Origin: the human T2T-CHM13v2.0 reference genome, Homo sapiens | Reading direction: 5' to 3' (one strand) | NCBI RefSeq assembly: GCF_009914755.1 | Contig: NC_060941.1 | DNA: 64,000 nucleotides | Shown: in pieces, positions 6,865 to 24,274 of the stretch | Numbering within the stretch: the stretch's first letter is position 1 | Layout of the letters: each line of letters begins with the position of its first letter | The notes under the pieces: generated by a model | The model's input: the letters and a program-made list of their open reading frames with translations, nothing else | The model's database searches: none | What the model was told of the DNA's origin: nothing | Program-made: the position numbers and the translations under genes

Positions 6865-8303
6865 TCAGAGAAGCTCAAAGAAAGTCTATGGGATGATCTA
6901 GGTCCTCTGGAAGCTAATAAGCCAACAGTCACCCTCTGAGAACATCCTAGGCACTTGAAATACGTCCCGGGGGAGAGAGTATTTTCCACAGAGCTGGAAG
7001 CTCAACCCCTTTTGTGCATGACTGAGGTAATGGAAATAACAGAGAGGTTAAGTGATTTCCCCACAGACACACAAATTCAGTGCCCACCACTAAAAAACCT
7101 AGTTCCCTGACACTACCTTGGGTGGCTATTTGCCTCTTCACCCTATCCTAAAAGAGATAATGAGGTAGAGAAGACAGATGAGCAGGTTGGCAACAAAAAT
7201 GTTGCATTCTTCCTACATAGCTAGTGGGTGGGTTGGGAGGGAACTAGGGGTGGCAAGTTTTAATGGGATGTTGCATGCACTCAGAACCATTGTCTTCCCC
7301 ATCCCCTTTGCTCTGCTCTGCACTCTGTAAGCAGAGGACACCCAGGAGAGAAACTATCCTGGGGCACTCCAGGGCATGGCTAGGGCCTCTGTCTGCCAAC
7401 AGGTGGGAGGACTGAGGTGAAATGCCCCAGGTGAGCCTCCCCTGACCTGGATGGCAATCAGCCCGCAGCCTGCAGTGGCTCTGATGATTTGATGATGAAG
7501 GCTTCTGCTGATGAGCACATGGTGCACAGCGAGGGGATTATGGCCCAGCCACCCCCACAACACACACACACACCCACTGCCTATGGAGGAGCAATGGCTC
7601 CACCTCTGCTGGGGGACACCATCACACTGTGCTGCATTAATAATCTTTCCTCTCCTGCTGGAAGCCCTGATGACAATCTCCAGCCCCCGGAGCTGGAAGG
7701 CACTTTCATCTCTACTCTTGCACAGGTTGCCGCAAAGGCCTGAGCTGGCTCTGGGCAAAGGGCAGGGGAGGTGGGGGCAGCTCCCACCCTCAGAAAGGAG
7801 ATTATCCTTCTAGGTAATCCTAGGAGGCTGCAGGGAGTCCCACCTTCTGGCATCCTGCAAAAATTGTAGCGGACAATTTTATGTCCTCTGCCAGCCTGAG
7901 TGAGGAAAGAGAAGCTGCTCTCCACCCCTTGCTGACTATGAGCCCATGGGGATCAGAGGGGATGGCCACAGGCCCCACCTATACCTGCCCTGGCTCAGTC
8001 CTTCCCCTCCTCCCACTCCTTTCTGGGCAGTGAATATTCAAGGACAGAGAGCCAGGAGAAGAACCACAGGAGGTTCAGGGCTGAGATGAGAAATGTCTAG
8101 GGTAGACATGTTCCTTCGATCTAGGGCACCTGTGCCCAGAAGCCCCCCTGCCTCCCCACCCAGCAGGAGGTCTGGGATGCTCAGGCTGCCGTTGCTCCCT
8201 CTCCGCACTCATAAAAATAGCCCAGGCGACTGCTGCACCCTCTTCTGGGGTGGGTCCAAGAGGCGCTGGGTCTGACGCTGAGGGCAGGCAGTTCTGTACT
8301 CAC

Positions 8304-8339
8304 CGTCTCCTCCTGCATAGGGATTCAACTTGGTGTCAT
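8304..8339 (-). CDS. PLXDC1: PLXDC1 exon 12 (DDTKLNPYAGGD), small 36-nt exon
   Basis: Pyrimidine tract plus ttgaag|AT acceptor; GACG|gtgagt donor; phase 1-1. Confidence 0.95.
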
Positions 8340-8893
8340 CTTCAAAGAGAGAAGACAGAAGGAGCAAGATTAGTGGAATCATTACAGCCTTTGTCACTCT
8401 GAGTCCAGATGGGATGAAAGTTCAGCCCAAACTTTCATTTTAGAGGTAAGGAAACTGAGGCTCAGAGAGGGGAGGAGACTTGCTCAAGTCACACAGCAGT
8501 TGAGTGTAGCTGGAGGCTGGGGAGTAAATGAGCGGGGACTGGTGAGAGATGAGGCTGGGAGTGGAGGGCCGGCTGCCTGGAGAGCAATAGGAGGCCATGC
8601 ACGTTCTTCTGTGGGGCGACAGAGAGATGTGTAAGGGTTTGAAGAGGGGCTTTATGTGTCACAAGGTCAGATCAGCCTGGAGACTCCCTGGGGCTGCAGT
8701 GTGCAGGAGAGAGTCCCAACCCACTTTCTGTCTATACCTCGAGGCCTGTAGCCTGTGGCTTTCTAAGTAAGTTTCAAGGGTCCACCCTTCCTGTGGTTCC
8801 TTCCCATGCAGATTTTTATGGGGAAAGAAAAGCAAGAGTTCCATGTCAGGAGAATGCTGTAAATGACTGAAGATTCTTGCCCTAAGCACCTGA

Positions 8894-13021
<4,128 letters not shown>

Positions 13022-13766
13022 GAGATGCAGGGTATTGAAAAAGGATAAGGGAGAGGAATGTCTCAGACATAGCTACAGAATCCTGGAGGGGGCATGGGAG
13101 AAAGGGAAGAGATTTGAGGCCTAGGACCGGAGGAGCCTGCACAAGGCTTCCTGGGACACCGCCTGGTGCATTCACGGGGATGGACCTCTGGCAGCTTCAA
13201 CCAAGACCCCCAGGCCTCCAGGTAGCAGGGAAGCCCCTAGATTGCAAGACCTGAATAGTCAGGGTGGATGGACAGCTGAGGTGGAATTCCCCATCCATCA
13301 CTCCAGGGCCTGAAAGTGAGAAGTCAGGTGATCATACAGAAAAACAAGGCAGCCTTTCTCTCACGCCTGAGTGTATGGACTGAGTTCATACCTGCTACAG
13401 GGATGAGCCTTTTCAGGTTCTGTGAGGACTGCTATTAAGATTAGCTGAGATAAGGTATATAAAATACCTGGCACTGGCCTGGGCTATTAATTTTTCCCCT
13501 CTTCACAGTGAATTGTCTGTAGCCCTGATGTGGGCCAGTACAGTGGTTAGAGCCCAGGAGTAGAGTTCAAGTTCTAAATCTGGCTCTGCTTCTCACCAGC
13601 AAGTGACCTAAACTGTCTGAACTTCAGGCCCCCTTAGCTATAAAAGGATGGGGCAGTTCCCATCCCATGAGATCATCCCTGTCAGGGACAGAGAGGGGGC
13701 CCCAGAGGGGTGGGTAGCTCTCCTTCCTGGCCTCCTCTCTGCTCCCCTCCTGGGCTCAGAACTTAC

Positions 13767-13902
13767 CTTCTGTGGTGAGGCTGTCGATGAAGAGGGAGGA
13801 GGAGGTAGTGGTGAGGTCTCCATCATAGGGGCTGAAGGAAGTGTCAGGGGAGGCTGAGTCGTGGTCCTCATCCTGGAAGTCCTCGCACATCCTGCCCTCT
13901 GC
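13767..13902 (-). CDS. PLXDC1: PLXDC1 exon 11 ([45 protein letters not shown]), Ser/Thr-rich stalk
   Basis: 136 nt; ctgcag|GCA and GAAG|gtaagt; phase 0-1. Confidence 0.97.
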
Positions 13903-14957
13903 CTGCAGGAGAGAGCCAGTGCTGTGTCTTGAATGCATTTACACCTTTCCCTTCATCCTGAAAGCATCTTCTCTTACAGGGCAATTTATCTGTCAGCTGC
14001 TTCAAATCCTTCCTCAAGGAAGGGGCTGAGATGCCAATCTTAAATAAATAGAGCAAATCTGAACGGTCACCAACAGCTAACTTCAAAAGTAGGCGGCTGG
14101 ACAGGGTTTTTTTAAAGCCCAGACTCAGACTAATAAATAGACTGTGGTAAGTGTATGGCCACAGGGTCTGGAGAGTTGATATTTAAATGCTGGGCCCGTC
14201 ACCTTCTAGCAGCGAGATGCAGGCCAATTCATTAAACTTCTCTGAGCCCCAGTTTTCCCCTGTGATCGATCAATGGGGGCAATGGCCCCCAGCTTTTGGT
14301 TCAGGTTAAATAAGAGCGAGGGTAGGGCAACTCACAGTGACATGCTTGGCACATGCAGCATGCTTGCTTTGCAAGAAGATATAAAGGGAGGGGGCAAAAA
14401 AGAGGGCACAGATGAATAGACCCATCTATGTTAGTCTATGGTGTGAGAATAGGATGCTTTCCACCTAGAATCAGTGTTGAGTGTACTGGAAAATTCTTGC
14501 AGTGAGAAGGAACCTGGATGGGATTCTAAAGAGGAGATGCCTGGAACCACCCTTCTCACTCCCAGAATGACTGCCTTCCTCAAAAGCCAGAGGACCAGAG
14601 GCTTAGCAGGTGCATCATTAAGGTCAGCAGGTGCACAGTCTCCCAGAGGAGCCAGCAGTGGCTGAGGCCATGCCCAACATCCCCTCTGCATGCACCAAAA
14701 GAATTCCTTGAGAGCTGCCCACTTAAGGTCAAGGCATCAGAATGCTCGTCTCAGAGACCCACAGAGCCCTCTGAAACCTTCCAAAGTGGGTCTGATTGGC
14801 TCAAGGCAGTCTGGAAAACAAATCTTAGATGGAAGGGAGGATATTGCCAAGAGCTAATGCCACCTTGAGAAGAGTTTCCAGGGGCAGGCCCTACTGGCTG
14901 CCCTCCTGTTCCCCACCACCTGGCACAGGAGTTGCAGCAGATACTTATGCTTCTCAC

Positions 14958-15018
14958 CTCCTGTGCACAGCCATAGTCCATCCACTCCTGGCGATAGCGG
15001 TCAAAGCCACTGGAGCAT
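14958..15018 (-). CDS. PLXDC1: PLXDC1 exon 10 ([21 protein letters not shown]), second half of the PSI domain
   Basis: 61 nt; ctgcag|A and GAG|gtgaga; phase 2-0. Confidence 0.97.
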
Positions 15019-15294
15019 CTGCAGGAGGACCAAAAGGACAGAGTTATGATGGGATTGACAAAGAAGCCTTCCCCTTTCACTGTTCAGTAACAGCTCTCTG
15101 CTGATAGTGAGAAGAGGAGCCAAGGTCCCCAGGCTGAGGTAGTCAGGCACTCCCATTCCCTCTACTTCCCCGGAAGATGAAGGTATTTGTGGCATCCCTG
15201 CCTTCCTTCCCACCCAGCTCCCCAGGACCAAGGCCACATCTGCCCATGTGAGTAGGTGTAGGGGCTAGCAGGACTGCATGAGCTCCAGTGATCC

Positions 15295-15382
15295 TCAAGG
15301 TCGCCTTGACTCTGAGCTGCCGTGACACTGCTGAGAATCCAGGCAATTCACATACGTGTTTTCATCCTGGTTGTTGAGGGAC
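15295..15382 (-). other. PLXDC1: Candidate alternative PLXDC1 exon in intron 9 (27-nt cassette 15356-15382, or terminal read-through to TGA)
   Basis: ctctctttcccaagtttag|GTCC acceptor; AC|gtatgt donor; in frame with exon 9: R-SLNNQDENT(YVNCLDSQQCHGSSESRRP*). Confidence 0.55.
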
Positions 15383-15983
15383 CTAAACTTGGGAAAGAGA
15401 GTAGGGCTAAAGGTAGGCCTCAGCAGACTTAGTCAACACCTCCCCATGTGATCATTCAAGGGCATTTCTGACGGTCCTGCCAGAGAGGCTGGGAGACAAC
15501 TGGCTGACAAGGGTCTCCGGAGAGGGCATTGGACAGCTCAGCTGGGCTGGAAGACACCAAGCGCCCCTGTAGGGAAAGGATGGGGGCATGACGATGCACC
15601 AGAGAATGTTCTCCATGCATCATTCCCAACTTTTCGTTCTTTACTCTTTGGTGCTAGGGGAACCCACCAAGCCCTACTCAAGCCCAGGGATGTCTGCATG
15701 GGAAGAATAACATCATGAACCACCAGTGCCAAGAAGGAATTCTCAGCAGGTTAACTGCACCAGCACCCACTGAGGTTTGGTGAGGCCAAGGGCCAAGGCT
15801 TGCCAGGAGCTGTCAGTCTTTCCTTCTGCAGATGCCTCTGGGCTCTGAGCTGCTCCTCCTGCAGCAGGGATGGCTGAACTGAGCCAGCCACACTCTCCTT
15901 CTGTCAGGTCCTCTATGCCCACTACTTTGGGGGATGGAGGATTAGGAAGGCTATTGGAGGCTGAGAACTAAAGTTTCTTTTAG

Positions 15984-18430
15984 GGCTGGGTGTGGTGGCT
16001 CATGCCTGTAATCCCAGCGTTTTGAGAGGCTGAGGCAGGAGGATTGCTTGAGCCCAGGAATTTAAGGCTATAGTGAGCTATGATGGCACCACTGCACTCC
16101 AGCCTGGGTGACAGAGCAAGACCCTGTCTCTTAAAAAAAAAAAATAGTTTCTTTTAGACTGTGCTAACTGATTCTTTCAAAGATTGAGCCTTTGGTATGG
16201 GTTTATGACCCCCATTTCTGGAGCTAATCCTGGAATTAACATTACCCTTAGACTCCAGAGTGGGTCATGGCGGGGCGGGGGCAGGCAGGCATCTGCCGTG
16301 AGAGACGAAATTGTTTAAATCCATTCCAGCCCAAGAGCAAGGAGAAAAGCTCTGGGAGGCTGTGAAAGGCAAAGTGGGTGGAGGGGAGGGGAGCAGAGAA
16401 CCATGCAGGGACTGACTGCAGCTGTTGGCAGAGAGACCATGTCAGCTGGCCCTGCCCTCCGGGTTTTTAGGGACCTAGGTTCAGCTCTCAGTTGCAGCTG
16501 AGGCTCCAGAGAGCTTGTAAGAAGGGACAATGTGCAGGAGTGAGCCCAGGCCCATGGGGCGCCTGGGGATGGGATGATTTTCAGCCTGCACCAGCCATGC
16601 TCCCCCAGGTGGAGTTTCTCTGTGCTCCTCTTTGCTGACACAACTCCTGCAGATGCACACAGTCAGAGGCCTTGCCCTTCCCCCAGCCTGACCAACCTCC
16701 TAATGTTGAGGAGGGCTCAACCCTCATTTAACTCATAGTCTCTGAATTTGGGCATATGCTTTAAATGGGGGTTGTGTTGATGGGAGAGTTTGGCTGTCAT
16801 CTGACCCATTTTGCAGTTCTCATGGCTCAGCGCTTGTGAAAGCTGAGTCATGTGGTGGCAGCCAGCCCCAGGATCCCAGGGCTCATCTGAGGCCATCTCT
16901 CCATTGCTTAGACCATGGTTCTCAAATTTGAAAGTACACAAGAGGGACCACTTCAAAAATCAGATTTCTGGGATCCTGGTTCCAGAGGATCATATTCAGT
17001 GGGATGGGGCCCAGGAATCTGCATTTTACAAGCCCTCCAGGTATAAGGAGAGCCTCACAGTCTGCAGACTATTCTGCAACGCTCTGCTCCAGGAAGAACC
17101 AACCTGGGGTCTATCCTACATATTCTTTCTGAGGCTCTGTGAGTCTCATGCGAAGGATGCTGAATGCTTTGTAAAAATGCTTCTTGCGGCTGGGCGTGGT
17201 GGCTCACGCCTGTAATCCCAGTACTTTGGGAGGCCGAGGCGGGCGGATCATGAGGTCAGGAGATCGAGACTGTCCTGGCTAACACGGTGAAACCTCATCT
17301 CTACTAAAAAAAAAAAAAAAAATACAAAAAATTAGCCAGGCGTGGTTGCAGGCGCCTGTAGTCCCAGCTACTCGGGAGGCTTAGGCAGGAGAATGGCCAG
17401 AACCCGGGAGGCGGAGCTTGCAGTGAACCGAGATCGCGCCACTGCACTCCAGCCTGGGTGACAGAGCGAGACTCCGTCTCAAAAAAAAAAAAATGCTTCT
17501 TGATATCTTGATAGCCTGGGTGCAGTGGCTCACACCTGTAATCCCAGCATTTTGGGAGGCCGAGGAGGGCAGATCACTTGAACCCAGGAGTTCAAGACCA
17601 GCTTGGCCAACAAAGTGAGACCCCATCTCTACAAAATATTAGAAAAATGGCCGGGTGTGGTGGTGTGCACCTGTGGTTTCAACTACAGGGGGGACTGAGG
17701 CAGGAGGATTGCTTGAGCCAGGAGGTTGAGGCCACAGTGAGCTGTGATTGCACCACTGCACCCCAGCCTGGATGACAGAGCAAGACCCTGTCTCAAAACA
17801 AAACAAAAACTGCTTGAGGAGTTTAAATAACAGTGTGTTTGTTCCCACATCTTCCTGAATCACATGACCCCAGCCCATTTTACAGGGTAAACAATCTGAG
17901 GCCCCAAGAGAGTGAATAAAAGCACAGCTGGTGGGAAGAACACCTGGGAGACCTGATGGGCACACCCCATCCCCTCTGGGCCCAGAGCTGTGTCCTGTGT
18001 GCTAGGCAGGCTGCCTATAAAGGCGAGAACTTCTACATTTGCAGCAGGATATTGGAAAGGAGCAAAGGAATCCTGGAATTAATGTTACTCTTAGACTCCA
18101 GAGTGGGCCATGGTGCAGAGGCAAAGGAAATCACTGGGGCCGGGGCAGTGGCTCACGCCTTTGGGAAGGCCGAGATAGATGGATTACCTGAGGTCAAGAG
18201 TTTGAGACAAGCCTGGCCAAACTCTTGGTTTGGTGAAACCCCATCTCTACTAGAAAAATACAAAAAAATTAGCTGGGTGTGGTGGTGTGTGCCTGTAATC
18301 CTAGCTACTCAAGAGGCTGAGGCAGGAGAATCGCTTGAACTCAGGAGGTAAAGGTTGCAGTGAGCCAAGATCACACCATTGTACTCCAGCCTGGGCAACA
18401 AGAGCAAAACTCTCTCAAAAAAAAAAAAAG
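15984..18430 (+). mobile_element. Alus in intron 9 (~15984-16145, AluY 17188-17493, ~17515-17808, ~18138-18430), not contiguous
   Basis: AluY diagnostics, TSD AAAAATGCTTCTTG, and an expanded A17 linker at 17306-17322. Confidence 0.9.
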
Positions 18431-18899
18431 CACTGGAAAGGAGCATTGGAAAGGAGCAGCACGACAGCTGCACAGGAACTCAGAGACTATAATTTAGCAA
18501 TTTTCAAGATTGCCTTAAAAGCCCTTGGAGTTCATAGGACTTCCCACTCTCATGAGAACTCTAGTCCCCAAGGAAATCTTTTTCTTCCCCCTCCTCCTGT
18601 CATTTATTTATCTTGGACAGGGAACAGAGCTTGAATGCTGAGTCTAATCTGTGAGGAAATGATTTCAGAACAAGGAGTGGAAGAGGAGATGGATTTAAGA
18701 ACATTATCACTGAAACTGAATCTCACCCAGAATTTTCTGAGCTTCTAAAAGCAAGCAAACACAGCTTTTTAGCTCTCCCAACTTTCCATGGATGCCTGTA
18801 GTCCACACCCCTGGTCTTCAGAAAAATCCCTTGCAGCCCAAGAAAGATCTTGAGGTGGTGTTTTGGGGTCATGGGTCTTTGGACCAGACTTTGTCTCTG

Positions 18900-19075
18900 A
18901 ACTGGCAGTTCTCACACTTGTTTGCAGATGAAGCATGATGTTAAAATGCAGCTTCCTGGGTTCTCTCCCAGAGATCCTGATACAGAGGGTCTGGGATGGG
19001 TCCCAGGAATCCAGTGTGTTTAACTGGAGCCCAGGGTCTAATGCCCACAGCTGTGGAACACTCCGAGAAGCCCTG
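18900..19075. mobile_element. MER5-type hAT relic (another at ~16910-17050)
   Basis: cagttctcacactt...aaaatgcagcttcctggg...gagaagccctg. Confidence 0.65.
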
Positions 19076-19311
19076 TTCCAGGATGAACCCTCTCCTCCTG
19101 GGTGTGAGGAGGGAGCCTGAGTAGCTGGAATCCCTAAATGGTCTTCCAGAAGCCCCCAGGCCATGTTCTTGTCCCAAGAGTCAGAGTGGTACTGGCCAGA
19201 GATACTCTCATGTTGGCTGACTGTGGGCAGTGAGGCCAGGACGGGGCCATGCCACCCTCTTCCCCTCCACAGTCGGCCAGTGGGAGTCAGCAGGTAACCC
19301 TGGGCACAAAC

Positions 19312-19393
19312 CTCTGGAGGACATGGCACCAGCTGCAGTTGAAGGTCAGGTCTGAGGACATGCAGGCGTCACAGCTCCTATGCTGCAGGCAGG
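19312..19393 (-). CDS. PLXDC1: PLXDC1 exon 9 ([27 protein letters not shown]), first half of the PSI domain
   Basis: 82 nt; gcag|CC and AG|gtttgt (weak donor); phase 1-2; PSI cysteine pattern CxxxxxCxxC...CxWC. Confidence 0.96.
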
Positions 19394-20049
19394 CTGCAAG
19401 AGAGAAGGCAGTGGCCGCTCAGCACCGAGCCTCTCCTTGGGCTCCAAAGGGTGCAACTCTGAATTCCTGGTATTTACAGAACTATGGAGCCCCTGACTTT
19501 GAGGAGACCTTTAAGGTCATTAATGCCACCTCCCTTGGTCCAGTCTAGCCCCAATTCCTAACTTCTTTTTTTAAGGGATGAGGTCTCGCTGTGTTGCCCA
19601 GGTTGGTGTGTGATGACCTGATCATGGCTCACTATAGCCTCGAACTTCTGGGTTCAAGTGATCCTCCTGCCTCAGCCTCCCCACCATCTCTTCCTCCCTC
19701 CCTACCTACCTTCCTTTTTTCCTTCTTCTGTCCCTCACTCCCTTGTTCCCTGCCTCCCTCGCTTCCTCCCTCCCTAGCTTCCTTCCTTCTCACTAGAAGG
19801 TCAGGCCCTAAACTGGGTGCTGGGGATTCAGCAGTGAGACCTAGTCCCTGCCTTCTTAGGGCTTAGACTCATATGGGGACACAGACACTAAACAGATAAT
19901 CAAAAATCACTACAGAATTAGAACTGTCACGAGGTCTATGACGGCAAATCACAAGGTGCTGTAAGTGTGTACAAAGGAATCTCACCTAGTCGGAGACATT
20001 ATACTTTCAGGTGTGTATCCCACAGTCAAAGGGTTGAAAGGGATTTTTT

Positions 20050-20325
20050 AAAGGTCAGAGCATACAAAGTAGCAGGTATGTAGGATGAACAAGGCTAGAA
20101 TCTACTGTATAACATGAGGACTGTAGGTAATAAAATTGTACTGTATGTGGAGTTCATGCTAAATGAGTAGATTTTAGCTGCTCTTGCCACAAGAACAAAA
20201 AATCTAAGGGAACTGTGAGATGATGGATATGTTAACTGCTTCATCATGGTAACCATCTCACTGTCTATATGCATCCCATAGCATCATGCTGTATACCTGA
20301 AATATGTACAATAAAAGTTATTGTT
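20050..20325 (+). mobile_element. L1M 3' end fragment
   Basis: gtgagatgatggatatgttaa...atgctgtatacctgaaatatgtacaataaaa. Confidence 0.75.
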
Positions 20326-20665
20326 TTAAAAGATGCTCTGGTTGCCCCCAGTGCTTGTTGGGGGCACTCACTGCCCACTCCTGATGTTCGGTCCATGGGG
20401 AGAAAACAGCTCTCCTGGGAGAGAAGAAGTCAAGGCAGAAAGGTCCCATGTGCAGAGCCGAGAGGGGAACGGCCCAGACGTGATCCCAGCAGCAGCCAGA
20501 ACTGCTACCAGGCTGCACAGAGTGAAGGGGCTGGAATTAGTACGAATGAAGAGGGAGCGACAGCTGGGGCCCAGCCTGGGCAGGACAGAGCCAGAGAACA
20601 GAGAGATTAGTGGGACCAGGTTGCTGGAGGGCGCGTGAACCCTTCTGGCACAGGCCAGGCACAGG

Positions 20666-21143
20666 AGCAGCAGGGCAGGGGGCGCAGTAGGCACGGGGGC
20701 TGGATTTAAGAGCTGTTCACTTGCAATCCAGTGCTACTCACTTGAATGAACCAGATGACCTCTGAGCGGCAAGTAGCTGTCACAAAGCCCGTATATTTGA
20801 TTGCAAAGAGAGACAGGCACTCACCCAGAACAACTGTGTGCAGAAGGGCTTATCTTATAAGCAACAGAACAGAACACCTTGATAGCCACAAGAAGTGACA
20901 ACTAACAACAGAAAAATGACCACTCATTTGATCAACATTGCATGTGTTTCTTCCTGTGTGAATTCTCATGTGATCCATTAACTCAGGAGCCAATGTGCAT
21001 TACATGGAGCCCCAGCAAGATGGCAGCTGGGAACCAGCCCTGGGTGAGTGGGAGAGAGGCTGCATGGGCACAGTGTGGCCACCTTCAGTCACTCTGGGAG
21101 GGACTGGCAGTGGGTGGCACTGTGTCCTTTTGTCTGCCGTGGT
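20666..21143. repeat. Long inverted repeat, arm B (intron 8)
   Basis: Reverse complement of 9359-9836. Confidence 0.97.
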
Positions 21144-22124
21144 GTTGAAGGCCCTGGGAGAGTGGATGGAAAGAGCCATGGGCAGGAAAGAAGCAGGGGC
21201 TGCCCTGTGCAGGAGGATGAGCACTCTCTGGCTGTTTTGTTCCCTGTGTATCCAGAGGGTCTGGAACAGTGCCTGGCACATGGTATGTCGAATCAATATA
21301 TAAGTGCTCTTGTTATCCCCATTTTATGGAGGAGGGAACTGAGGCTTGGAGAGAGTCGTGGAGCTGACAGTGAGAGGTCTGGGTTTGAACCAAGGTCTGT
21401 TTGAACATAGAGATCGAGCTCTTAGCCTTGAGGTCTCACTGTGGGTTTCCCCTGCCCCTTCCTCAGCTCTCACTCCCACCCCAGGCCACTTTTTTATGGG
21501 TCTCTCCTAGAAGAGGGACCAGGAGGGACCAGCTACAGAATACGATGGCTTGGAGATAAGCCACTCACCCCTCTGAAGTAATCTGGACAAGTCCTTCCCA
21601 CACCCAAATGGTAAGGGAGAAGCCAGGGGATACAGAGAGTTTTCTCCCTATCTGGTTTCCCAGGGGCTCAAATCACAGCCTTGATAGCATTACCCCTCCT
21701 TCACCAGCTGCTTCCAGGTGGGAGCCCTGCCCTTGCCTTTCCCAGTGACTTTGGAGGCCCCTTAAAAGACTCCAGTCAAACTGGCCACAGAGAAACTCCT
21801 GGGATCCTCCTGGGGTATTCATAACACCTACTGACCTTTATTTCTCATCAACATTTCAGATGGCCTGAATGCTATTAAATGCTCACAAAATTCACCGGAG
21901 GGGTGAGAAGTACCTTAAATGTACAGTGTCCCAGAAATGCATTCCCAAAACATTTCACTGCTTCCACCCAGGCAGTCAGCCCTGCCCTTGGATGTCCTTG
22001 CTCCTAAATGCAGTTTTATCCACATCATAGAGGCTAAGGTTTGCTCTCACCAGTCCTCGAGGAACCCTGGTTCTCAGGCCCTGAGCCTTCTGCCCCGATG
22101 GAGAGTGATAGGGTTGGGGTATGG

Positions 22125-22184
22125 CTGTGACCTCTAAAGTGTCCCAGCCCTGTGACCCCTAAAGTGTCCCAGCCCTGTGACCCC
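22125..22184 (+). repeat. 25-bp tandem repeat, ~2.4 copies (CTGTGACCYCTAAAGTGTCCCAGCC)
   Basis: Read directly from the sequence. Confidence 0.9.
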
Positions 22185-22364
22185 CTGGTGTCTGAGTCCT
22201 TTCTGTTGTCCAGGGAAAGACACCTGCTGAGCCCTGTCTGAGACATGGCCTAGCATTTGAGAAGATCCTCCCTCCTTCTCTTCCTCTTCCTTCTCCACCC
22301 CCTGCTCTCAGGACCTCCAAGGAAGAGGAAGCAGGGGTAAAGAGAGGCAAGAAATGCCACTGAA

Positions 22365-22750
<386 letters not shown>

Positions 22751-23455
22751 AAATGCCACTGAGGCAGGGAGAAGGCCATGGCTTCAGCAGGAAGCTGGGG
22801 GCACCACAAGATGGGAGAGGAAATGAAGACCTTCATAAAACAACAAGAAGGAAGATGCTGTACTCCTTCCCGCAGTCTCAGCTGTCCCAGCCCCATCCCG
22901 AAGAGCATCCACCGCGGATCCTGTGGGCTCCACAACAGCAGGTGGCTGCCTTCAGCATGGGTGAGTGGGGTGCAGAGGGCCAGGGTCCCATGGTTTATGG
23001 AGGCCACCTGCTAAGTCCCTCCATTGCCTCCTGCCTGTGGACCGCAGCATCACCTCCTCTAAGGAGAATACAGTGACAAACTGAGGCCCGTCTAGTTCCT
23101 GGATCACCTTTTCTGGGGGCTCAGTCTAGGCGTTCTCAGAGGTACAGCTTTCCCGGGTTTCAATTATGTGGGAATAACAATAGCTGTCCTAGATCAAGCC
23201 CTAACCCCCACCCCAAACCCAGAATGGACCCATCAATGTCAGAGCTGCGGCCGATGTGCTCAACTCCACCTAGGTGGTTCTCACCCTTACCCTATCTCTG
23301 GGAGGGAGGTGGCATCAGGCTCGGGTTACAAAAGAGAGATGGAGGGCCCCGAAAAGTTAGGTGGCTGCACAAAACAGGAGTCAGTCATGGGCCTGGGACA
23401 TGAAGCCAGTCTGCTTGACTCCAGAGCTCTTTCTGGGATGGCGGAATGACCCCTA

Positions 23456-23752
<297 letters not shown>

Positions 23753-24274
23753 CTAAGTGACTCAACGCAGAGACCTGGCTGCTCTTGGGGGCAGGACAAA
23801 TGGGATCCCATGCTTGCTTCTCCTTGCCTCTGCGCCTTCACAACTGCTATTCCCCTGACCCAAGATGTTCTTCCACCCCTTCTTCCTGTCTAGCTCATCC
23901 TTGCAGATCTAGCTCAAGGGCCACTTCCCCTGAGCAGCCCTCCTTGGCCAGCTCCCTCCTCTGCCTGGCTCAGGCCAGGTGCCCCCCTCCCACTGCACTC
24001 ACCACACTGTGGACATGAGGGTCTATTTGGAGGCTGGGGATGTGTGAGACCATGATCATCTGGTCCTGAACCTCGCTGAGTGCTCTGTGAATGTCTGCAG
24101 ATGGACAGGCTGACTTTTGCATGTTGCTGTCCACCATCCACCTCACCCCTCCTGGACAAATCCCCCAGCAAGGCTCAGGGCTTGCAGCCAGGCTCGAGTC
24201 CTACTTTGGTCCCTGCAGAAACTTCTCACAGGACCTCAGAGTCAGGAGATCCAAGTTCGTTCTAGTTCTGCTCA

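What the first reader, a model, noticed from the sequence alone, without database searches (positions are those of the whole stretch)
13767..19393. Looped exons total 279 nt, phase 1-1: predicts a stop-free circRNA and an in-frame PSI-less receptor
Seen: 82+61+136 = 279 nt = 93 codons. Back-splicing exon 11 (GAA G) to exon 9 (CC TGC) creates GCC (Ala) and a circle with no stop in the native frame and internal ATGs, i.e. an endless ORF of Cys-rich PSI+stalk repeats. Linear skipping 8->12 gives CCG A|AT GAC ACC = P-N-D-T: a 407-aa membrane isoform without PSI and with a new N-x-T glycosylation sequon at the junction. Whether either RNA exists or is translated is inference.
Basis: partly seen in the sequence, partly recalled or inferred. 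Interest (0 to 1): 0.72.

Follow-up and report, generated by a model that had tools for sequence, protein, structure and literature searches.

The report
In-frame PLXDC1 exon trio, looped
Three ordinary coding exons of the human PLXDC1 gene add up to a whole number of codons and are bracketed by a long inverted repeat, so a circular RNA or a shortened receptor is possible on paper, but nothing found here shows that either exists.

Summary
The arithmetic is right. PLXDC1 exons 9, 10 and 11 (minus strand) are 82, 61 and 136 nt, 279 in all, phase 1-1, all with AG/GT sites. A circle of the three has no stop in the native frame and three in-frame ATGs. Joining exon 8 to exon 12 stays in frame and makes an N-D-T sequon.

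This is not special. In this gene 25 of 66 runs of internal coding exons are multiples of three, and all 25 give stop-free circles.

The stronger feature is a 479-nt, 94%-identical inverted repeat in introns 8 and 11. It is the only long high-identity self-match in the 64 kb, and it brackets exactly these exons. By a known mechanism it could favour back-splicing or looping-out.

No PLXDC1-derived circular RNA or exon 9-11 skip turned up in six text searches and four supplement sets. That is weak negative evidence.

The circle's product would lack a signal peptide, so the cysteine-rich PSI domain would be made in the cytosol.

Verdict: annotated, ordinary exons, plus a plausible but untested prediction of a known kind. 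Low interest.

The parts
19312..19393 (-). PLXDC1 exon 9 (82 nt, enters in phase 1). It encodes the first half of the PSI domain. Its acceptor is the one used by the predicted back-splice.
   Evidence: AG/GT sites; 3' splice site CTTCTCTCTTGCAG; residues 1-24 match Pfam PSI PF01437 positions 2-24 of 52, at 24.9 bits against a cut-off of 23.1.
14958..15018 (-). PLXDC1 exon 10 (61 nt), holding the sixth and seventh of the region's eight cysteines
   Evidence: On its own (20 aa) it has no Pfam hit. Its assignment to PSI rests on the count of 8 cysteines and is an inference.
13767..13902 (-). PLXDC1 exon 11 (136 nt). It holds the eighth cysteine and then an acidic, Ser/Thr-rich stalk. Its donor (AAG|GTAAGT) is the one used by the predicted back-splice.
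23461..23556 (-). PLXDC1 exon 8, whose donor would be used in the predicted 8->12 skip
8304..8339 (-). PLXDC1 exon 12 (36 nt, phase 1), whose acceptor would be used in the predicted skip
20666..21143 (.). Arm of the 479-nt inverted repeat in intron 8, 1272 nt upstream (in the transcript) of the exon 9 acceptor
9359..9836 (.). Arm of the 479-nt inverted repeat in intron 11, 3930 nt downstream (in the transcript) of the exon 11 donor
22435..22753 (.). Alu-like repeat in intron 8. It is inverted relative to Alu-like copies in intron 11 (12630-12884 and 10789-11102) and forms weaker secondary pairings that bracket the same exons.
   Evidence: 79-86% identity; -455 and -443 kcal/mol

Best explanation
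These are three ordinary, annotated coding exons of PLXDC1 (TEM7). Together they encode one extracellular module: the eight-cysteine PSI domain plus an acidic Ser/Thr-rich stalk.

The module is bounded by phase-1 introns. Its 279-nt total therefore keeps the frame whether the exons are circularised or skipped. That is an arithmetic consequence shared by more than a third of exon runs in this gene, not a signal of function.

A 479-nt inverted repeat, one arm in intron 8 and one in intron 11, can pair in the pre-mRNA. This would bring the exon 11 donor next to the exon 9 acceptor. By the established mechanism of circularisation through complementary intron sequences, this makes low-level back-splicing and/or looping-out of exons 9-11 plausible.

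I infer that any such RNAs are minor by-products. I also infer that the circle is not meaningfully translated: it has no signal peptide, the ATG contexts are weak, and the product would be a repetitive, unpaired-cysteine, acidic chain that is likely degraded.

Shown: the exon anatomy, the frame, the PSI match, the inverted repeat and its predicted stability. Inferred: pairing in vivo, the existence and abundance of either RNA, and the lack of function.
For: Exons.
- Exons, splice sites and frame.
- Baseline: 25 of 66 exon runs are 3n, and all 25 are stop-free as circles.
- Of the 6 circles that exons 9-11 can form, only 9-11 is 3n.
- PSI match for exon 9. The 93 codons hold 8 Cys, 18 D/E against 5 K/R, and 21 S/T.

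Inverted repeat.
- 479 nt at 94.2% identity.
- It is the only self-match of >=250 nt and >=88% identity in the 64-kb window.
- It scores 728 bits, against <=294 bits for the best inverted match of every other pair among introns 7-12.
- Predicted duplex energy is -926.6 kcal/mol. The best Alu-like cross pair gives -455.1 and the best within-intron competitor -293.4.

Mechanism (Liang & Wilusz 2014, abstract and sections 10 and 15).
- Inverted repeats of 30-40 nt suffice for circularisation.
- Complementary sequence that is not an annotated repeat can work.
- A repeat pair does not guarantee a circle.

Against translation mattering.
- Maximum 19-aa hydropathy is 0.69, so there is no signal peptide or membrane segment.
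- In-frame ATG contexts are weak: -3 is T, T, A and +4 is T, G, T.
- Rolling-circle products are reported as mostly unstable (Fan 2022 passages).

No report of either RNA.
Against: The inverted repeat is unusually long and strong. It is far above the 30-40 nt shown to suffice, so circularisation could be efficient rather than marginal.

No RNA-seq, junction database or circRNA database could be queried here.

The negative literature evidence is weak, for these reasons:
- The text searches do not cover supplementary tables.
- In the Salzman 2013 tables the PLXDC1 rows show very low values (0.003-0.029) in a column I take to be linear expression.
- One Szabo 2015 file was cut when stored.
- Jeck 2013, the fibroblast RNase R set, is not held.

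The hub's transcript table lists only exons absent from the selected transcript. A skipping isoform among the 14 RefSeq transcripts would therefore not show in it.
Confidence: 0.66

Rival explanations
1. The inverted repeat drives efficient back-splicing. A stable 279-nt PLXDC1 circular RNA, and a matching exon 9-11-skipped mRNA, are regular and regulated products in cells that express PLXDC1. The circle acts as a non-coding RNA or simply lowers output of the full-length receptor.
For: The repeat brackets exactly exons 9-11 and is the strongest pairing available among introns 7-12. Competitor pairs within intron 8 are weak (51 bits), and those within intron 11 are weaker than the repeat (252 bits). 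The exon 11 donor AAG|GTAAGT and the exon 9 acceptor tract are good sites. The mechanism is established in minigenes.
Against: No PLXDC1 circRNA was found:
- The word 'circPLXDC1' occurs in 0 papers.
- 13, 7 and 19 papers hold PLXDC1 together with circRNA, hsa_circ or circular RNA. In the 5 of these whose passages I read, PLXDC1 is a predicted target or a differentially expressed gene, or the circRNA term refers to another gene or sits only in the reference list.
- There are 0 hits in the 3 supplementary files of a 20-tissue circRNA map.

Long perfect dsRNA attracts ADAR, which may unwind the hairpin. The arms lie 1.3 and 3.9 kb from the splice sites, with 10.8 kb between them.
Confidence: 0.22
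2. The skipped mRNA encodes a functional membrane receptor without PSI, with altered ligand binding and a newly glycosylated juxtamembrane site.
For: The skip is in frame and removes all 8 cysteines cleanly. Single or double skips of these exons would shift the frame. The N-D-T sequon lies in the ectodomain, upstream of the membrane segment. Cheng 2014 states that PLXDC1 has several isoforms (passage).
Against: No such isoform was found in print. In the paralogue PLXDC2, an AlphaFold3-based study treats PSI as part of one rigid ectodomain unit, residues 107-372 (passage), so removal may destabilise the fold; this is an inference. The skip also removes the native N-C-S sequon, so the sequon count in this segment is unchanged.
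Confidence: 0.05
3. The circle is translated round and round into concatemers of PSI plus stalk, and these have a biological effect.
For: The circle has no stop in the native frame and has three in-frame ATGs. [quoted passage not shown]
Against: There is no signal peptide and the ATG contexts are weak. Neither of the two IRES-like hexamers named in the Fan 2022 passage (AAGAAG, AATTCA) is present. PLXDC1 is absent from the 4 Fan 2022 supplementary files searched. Such products are reported as unstable.
Confidence: 0.02

Closest known systems
Exon circularisation driven by inverted complementary sequences in the flanking introns (ZKSCAN1, HIPK3, EPHB4, GCN1L1; Liang & Wilusz 2014, PMC4201285)
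   Same: Canonical splice sites, with inverted complementary sequence in the introns on both sides of the exons. The arms are far longer than the 30-40 nt shown to suffice.
   Different: The arms are not Alu-like and have no third copy in the window. They lie 1.3 and 3.9 kb from the splice sites. No circle has been observed.
Circular RNAs with rolling-circle ORFs (rcORF: circPSAP, circPFAS, circABHD12; Fan et al. 2022, PMC9242994)
   Same: The length is a multiple of 3, the host frame has no stop, and in-frame ATGs are present.
   Different: There is no evidence of the circle or of peptides, and PLXDC1 is not in that paper's 4 supplementary files. The class is common: 14% of full-length human circRNAs.
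Phase 1-1 extracellular domain modules and in-frame domain-skipping receptor isoforms (recalled general knowledge: the exon-shuffling rule for extracellular modules; not tested by any search)
   Same: The PSI-plus-stalk module is bounded by phase-1 introns on both sides.
   Different: The module is split over three exons, none of which is symmetric on its own. No skipping isoform is documented in what I could search.
Annotated PLXDC1 alternative transcripts (hub table). 'Several isoforms' is stated in Cheng 2014, PMC4303762.
   Same: Alternative processing does occur inside the looped interval. There is a 27/32-nt cassette at 15356-15382/87, and there are terminal exons at 12951/12989-13082 and 17264-17303.
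   Different: Those events add or end exons. None is the 9-11 skip or a back-splice.

Membership tests
Exonic circular RNA made by pairing of complementary intron sequences | Canonical acceptor upstream and canonical donor downstream of the circularised exons | tested here: met
   AG before exon 9 and GT after exon 11
Exonic circular RNA made by pairing of complementary intron sequences | Reverse-complementary sequence in the two flanking introns, stronger than the pairs within either intron | tested here: met
   479 nt at 94.2% identity and 728 bits, against within-intron bests of 51 bits (intron 8) and 252 bits (intron 11). Duplex energy is -926.6 against -293.4 kcal/mol.
Exonic circular RNA made by pairing of complementary intron sequences | An observed back-splice junction (RNase R-resistant reads or divergent-primer product) | not testable with these tools
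   No RNA-seq or circRNA database is available here. Text and supplement searches found none.
Rolling-circle ORF circRNA (rcORF, as defined in Fan 2022) | A circle whose concatenated sequence has a start codon and no stop in one frame | tested here: met
   279 nt, 0 stops in the native frame, 3 in-frame ATGs
Rolling-circle ORF circRNA (rcORF, as defined in Fan 2022) | Evidence of translation across the back-splice junction | tested here: not met
   PLXDC1 is absent from the 4 supplementary files of Fan 2022.
In-frame multi-exon skipping isoform | The skipped block has equal entry and exit phase and a length that is a multiple of 3 | tested here: met
   Phase 1-1, 279 nt, and the open frame is kept
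In-frame multi-exon skipping isoform | An observed exon 8-exon 12 junction or an annotated transcript | not testable with these tools
   The hub table cannot show a transcript made only of known exons. The one paper holding 'PLXDC1' and 'exon skip' is a mouse target list.
PSI domain (Pfam PF01437) | A profile match above the curated cut-off | tested here: met
   Exon 9 translation: 24.9 bits against 23.1, profile positions 2-24 of 52. Only the first half could be tested, because spliced protein could not be handed to the tool.
PSI domain (Pfam PF01437) | About 50 residues with eight cysteines (as stated in the PMC2857480 passage) | tested here: met
   8 Cys in the 93 codons, all within the first 53 residues

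The most novel reading that the evidence does not exclude
A local inverted duplication of about 480 nt arose within the PLXDC1 gene. At K2P 0.062 it is perhaps 15-60 million years old, depending on the rate assumed. It works as a built-in RNA bridge that switches the PSI module of this PEDF/nidogen/cortactin-binding receptor in or out. When the arms pair, the cell makes a stable circular RNA plus an in-frame receptor without PSI and with different ligand binding. Pairing would be tuned by dsRNA-binding proteins such as ADAR.
Probability: 0.07. Interest if true: 0.5.

Novelty: new member of a known kind. Interest (0 to 1): 0.17.

Why it matters
PLXDC1 (TEM7) is a tumour-endothelial marker and a reported PEDF receptor. 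An isoform without the PSI domain, or a circular RNA that diverts transcripts from the full-length form, would bear on ligand binding and on antibody targeting.

As it stands, only the possibility is shown. The frame property is generic, and the kind of RNA predicted is already well known. The one feature worth a bench test is the exceptional inverted repeat that brackets exactly the PSI exons.

Tried and rejected
- Pfam on exon 10 alone (20 aa) gave nothing. Exon 11 gave only a sub-threshold LRRC37 hit (15.9 bits against 27, E 0.016). I read that as compositional.
- One Pfam call failed on a frame slip and was corrected.
- The spliced protein could not be passed to Pfam or the structure tools, so the whole PSI domain, the ectodomain fold and the PSI-less form were not modelled.
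- Rfam over 8000-24000 gave only a Metazoa_SRP match at 15985-16132, which I read as an Alu-like piece. Nothing was found in the repeat arms.
- Whether the 479-nt element is a transposon family or a local duplication could not be settled. There is no third copy in the window, no obvious target-site duplications by eye, and no repeat library or other primate genome on hand.
- Jeck 2013 is not held.
- A search for PLXDC1 with 'RNA editing', as a proxy for in vivo pairing, gave 4 papers, none relevant by title or abstract (listing only).
- Szabo 2015 supplements: PLXDC1 occurs only in a mouse file (14 occurrences). The one row shown is a linear junction, and the rest were not read.
- Salzman 2013: the PLXDC1 rows end in 'NA NA' in 3 of 8 files. 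I take these to be the circular-isoform columns, but I did not read the headers.
Full report
**What is there.** On the minus strand the three stretches are exactly the annotated PLXDC1 exons. Exon 9 is 19312-19393 (82 nt), exon 10 is 14958-15018 (61 nt) and exon 11 is 13767-13902 (136 nt). Each is preceded by AG and followed by GT. Joining the 12 coding parts that lie in the window gives a single open frame of 415 codons ending at the annotated stop. The other two frames have 10 and 16 stops. Exon 9 begins in phase 1 and exon 12 begins in phase 1, so the block is 279 nt, or 93 codons, phase 1-1.

All of them check out as conditional statements.
- A circle of exons 9-11 has 0 stops in the native frame, and 1 and 6 stops in the others.
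- It has three in-frame ATGs, and its junction codon is GCC, reading E-A-C.
- The 8->12 join keeps the frame (322 codons against 415 in the window part) and reads P-N-D-T.
- The figure of 407 aa depends on 85 codons in exons 1-2, which lie outside the window. I could not check it.

**Is it more than chance?** No. Among the 66 contiguous runs of internal coding exons 3-13 of this gene, 25 have a length that is a multiple of three. All 25 give a stop-free circle in the native frame, and 23 of the 25 hold at least one in-frame ATG. A stop-free circle follows automatically from joining coding exons whose total is 3n. In print, 14% of full-length human circRNAs carry such a rolling-circle ORF in the host frame (Fan 2022, PMC9242994, passages). 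The only mildly specific point concerns the six circles that exons 9, 10 and 11 can form. Of these, only the full trio is 3n.

**What the exons encode.** Exon 9 alone matches Pfam PSI (PF01437) at 24.9 bits against a cut-off of 23.1, covering profile positions 2-24 of 52. The 93 codons hold 8 cysteines, all in the first 53 residues. The rest is acidic and rich in Ser/Thr: 18 D/E against 5 K/R, and 21 S/T. A PSI domain is described as about 50 residues with eight cysteines (PMC2857480, passage). The trio is therefore the whole PSI module plus a stalk, bounded by phase-1 introns. That arrangement is what general knowledge of extracellular modules leads one to expect; this point is recalled, not tested.

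**The loop.** The title's 'looped' has a real basis.
- One arm at 9359-9836 (intron 11) and one at 20666-21143 (intron 8) form a 479-nt inverted repeat of 94.2% identity.
- It is the only self-match of >=250 nt and >=88% identity in the whole 64-kb window, and it has no third copy there.
- Among all pairs of introns 7-12, its 728 bits compare with at most 294 bits for the best inverted match of any other pair.
- The best competitors within a single intron are 51 bits (intron 8) and 252 bits (intron 11).
- The predicted RNA duplex energy is -926.6 kcal/mol with 458 pairs. The best Alu-like cross pair gives -455.1, the best competitor within intron 11 gives -293.4, and ten shuffled arms give -194 to -241.
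- The arms lie 1272 nt upstream of the exon 9 acceptor and 3930 nt downstream of the exon 11 donor, with 10,829 nt between them.
- Exons 9-11, and no other constitutive exon, lie between the arms.
- Divergence is K2P 0.062 (22 transitions, 6 transversions). Identity is 96.3% over 9359-9759 and 83.1% over 9760-9836.
- This implies an age of roughly 14-62 million years, depending on the rate assumed. That is an inference.

**How it most likely works.** Inverted repeats of 30-40 nt flanking exons are enough for circularisation in cells. Complementary sequence that is not an annotated repeat can serve. A repeat pair does not guarantee a circle, and ADAR may oppose pairing (Liang & Wilusz 2014, PMC4201285, abstract and sections 10 and 15). 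Pairing of these arms in the PLXDC1 pre-mRNA would bring the strong exon 11 donor (AAG|GTAAGT) next to the exon 9 acceptor. Some back-splicing is therefore mechanistically plausible. So is the matching looped-out 8->12 join, although no paper read here addresses looping-out skips, so that link rests on recalled knowledge. Nothing beyond plausibility is shown.

**Why translation of the circle is unlikely to matter.**
- The product has no hydrophobic segment (maximum 19-aa hydropathy 0.69). It has no signal peptide, so a domain that depends on four disulfides would be made in the cytosol.
- The three in-frame ATGs have weak contexts: -3 is T, T, A and +4 is T, G, T.
- Neither of the two IRES-like hexamers named in the Fan 2022 passage is present.
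- Rolling-circle products are reported as mostly unstable.

**The skipped form.** It would lose the native N-C-S sequon inside PSI while gaining N-D-T, so the sequon count in this segment does not change. For the paralogue PLXDC2, a modelling paper treats PSI as part of one rigid ectodomain unit (PMC12688484, passage). Removal may therefore cost stability; this is an inference.

**Search for prior evidence.**
- 'circPLXDC1' (match anywhere): 0 papers.
- PLXDC1 with circRNA: 13 papers.
- PLXDC1 with hsa_circ: 7 papers.
- PLXDC1 with 'circular RNA': 19 papers.
- I read passages in 5 of these papers. PLXDC1 appears there as a predicted miRNA target or a differentially expressed gene, or the circRNA term refers to another gene or sits only in the reference list. 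The rest I saw only as listings.
- PLXDC1 with 'exon skip': 1 paper, a mouse target list.
- Searches for TEM7 or PLXDC1 isoforms gave only the statement that PLXDC1 'has several isoforms' (Cheng 2014, passage).
- Supplements, Maass 2017 tissue map: 0 hits in 3 files.
- Supplements, Fan 2022: 0 hits in 4 files.
- Supplements, Salzman 2013: PLXDC1 rows in 3 of 8 files, each ending 'NA NA' beside values of 0.003-0.029 that I take to be linear expression. I did not read the headers.
- Supplements, Szabo 2015: hits only in a mouse file. The one row shown is a linear junction, and the file was cut when stored.
- Jeck 2013 is not held.

These are weak negatives. No junction or circRNA database could be queried, and other supplements I could not see may list such junctions.

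**Verdict.** It is made somewhat more likely by an exceptional inverted repeat. It has no evidence of existence, and there are good reasons to doubt any coding role.

My odds are:
- about 0.5 that a 9-11 back-splice read exists somewhere in public data;
- about 0.2 that the circle and the skip are regular, repeat-dependent products;
- about 0.05 that a PSI-less receptor is functional;
- about 0.02 that rolling translation matters.

Noticed in passing
window 12951-13082 (also 12989-13082), minus strand: This alternative RefSeq exon in intron 11 has an AG acceptor but no GT donor, so it is a terminal exon. Read on from exon 11 it adds 6 residues and then a stop. That would give an ectodomain form that keeps PSI but lacks the membrane segment.
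   Followed up: partly
window 15356-15382 and 15356-15387, minus strand: A small cassette exon in intron 9 with AG and GT sites. The 27-nt form inserts 9 residues in frame inside the PSI domain, right after exon 9. The 32-nt form shifts the frame.
   Followed up: partly
window 9359-9836 and 20666-21143, plus strand: Both arms of the inverted repeat lie within one intron of the antisense transcribed pseudogene RDM1P5, between its exons 8922-9187 and 22312-22960 (hub table). The same hairpin could therefore form in that RNA. Its alternative exons at 15658-17305 would sit in the loop.
   Followed up: no
window 9760-9836 versus 9359-9759: Identity between the repeat arms falls from 96.3% over 401 nt to 83.1% over the last 77 nt. 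The cause is unexplained: it could be a gene-conversion tract, or the edge of a diverged element.
   Followed up: no
window 15985-16132, plus strand: An Rfam Metazoa_SRP match just above the cut-off (72.3 bits against 70). I read it as an Alu-like piece derived from 7SL, not an SRP RNA gene. It pairs in inverted orientation with Alu-like copies in intron 11.
   Followed up: partly
window 13768-13902, minus strand: The exon 11 translation gives a sub-threshold Pfam hit to the LRRC37 family (15.9 bits against 27, E 0.016), and an LRRC37 pseudogene lies just outside the window. I read the hit as a composition effect of the acidic, Ser/Thr-rich stretch.
   Followed up: no
window 8304-8445: According to the hub table, RDM1P5 exon 8321-8445 (plus strand) overlaps PLXDC1 exon 12 (8304-8339, minus strand) in antisense.
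   Followed up: no
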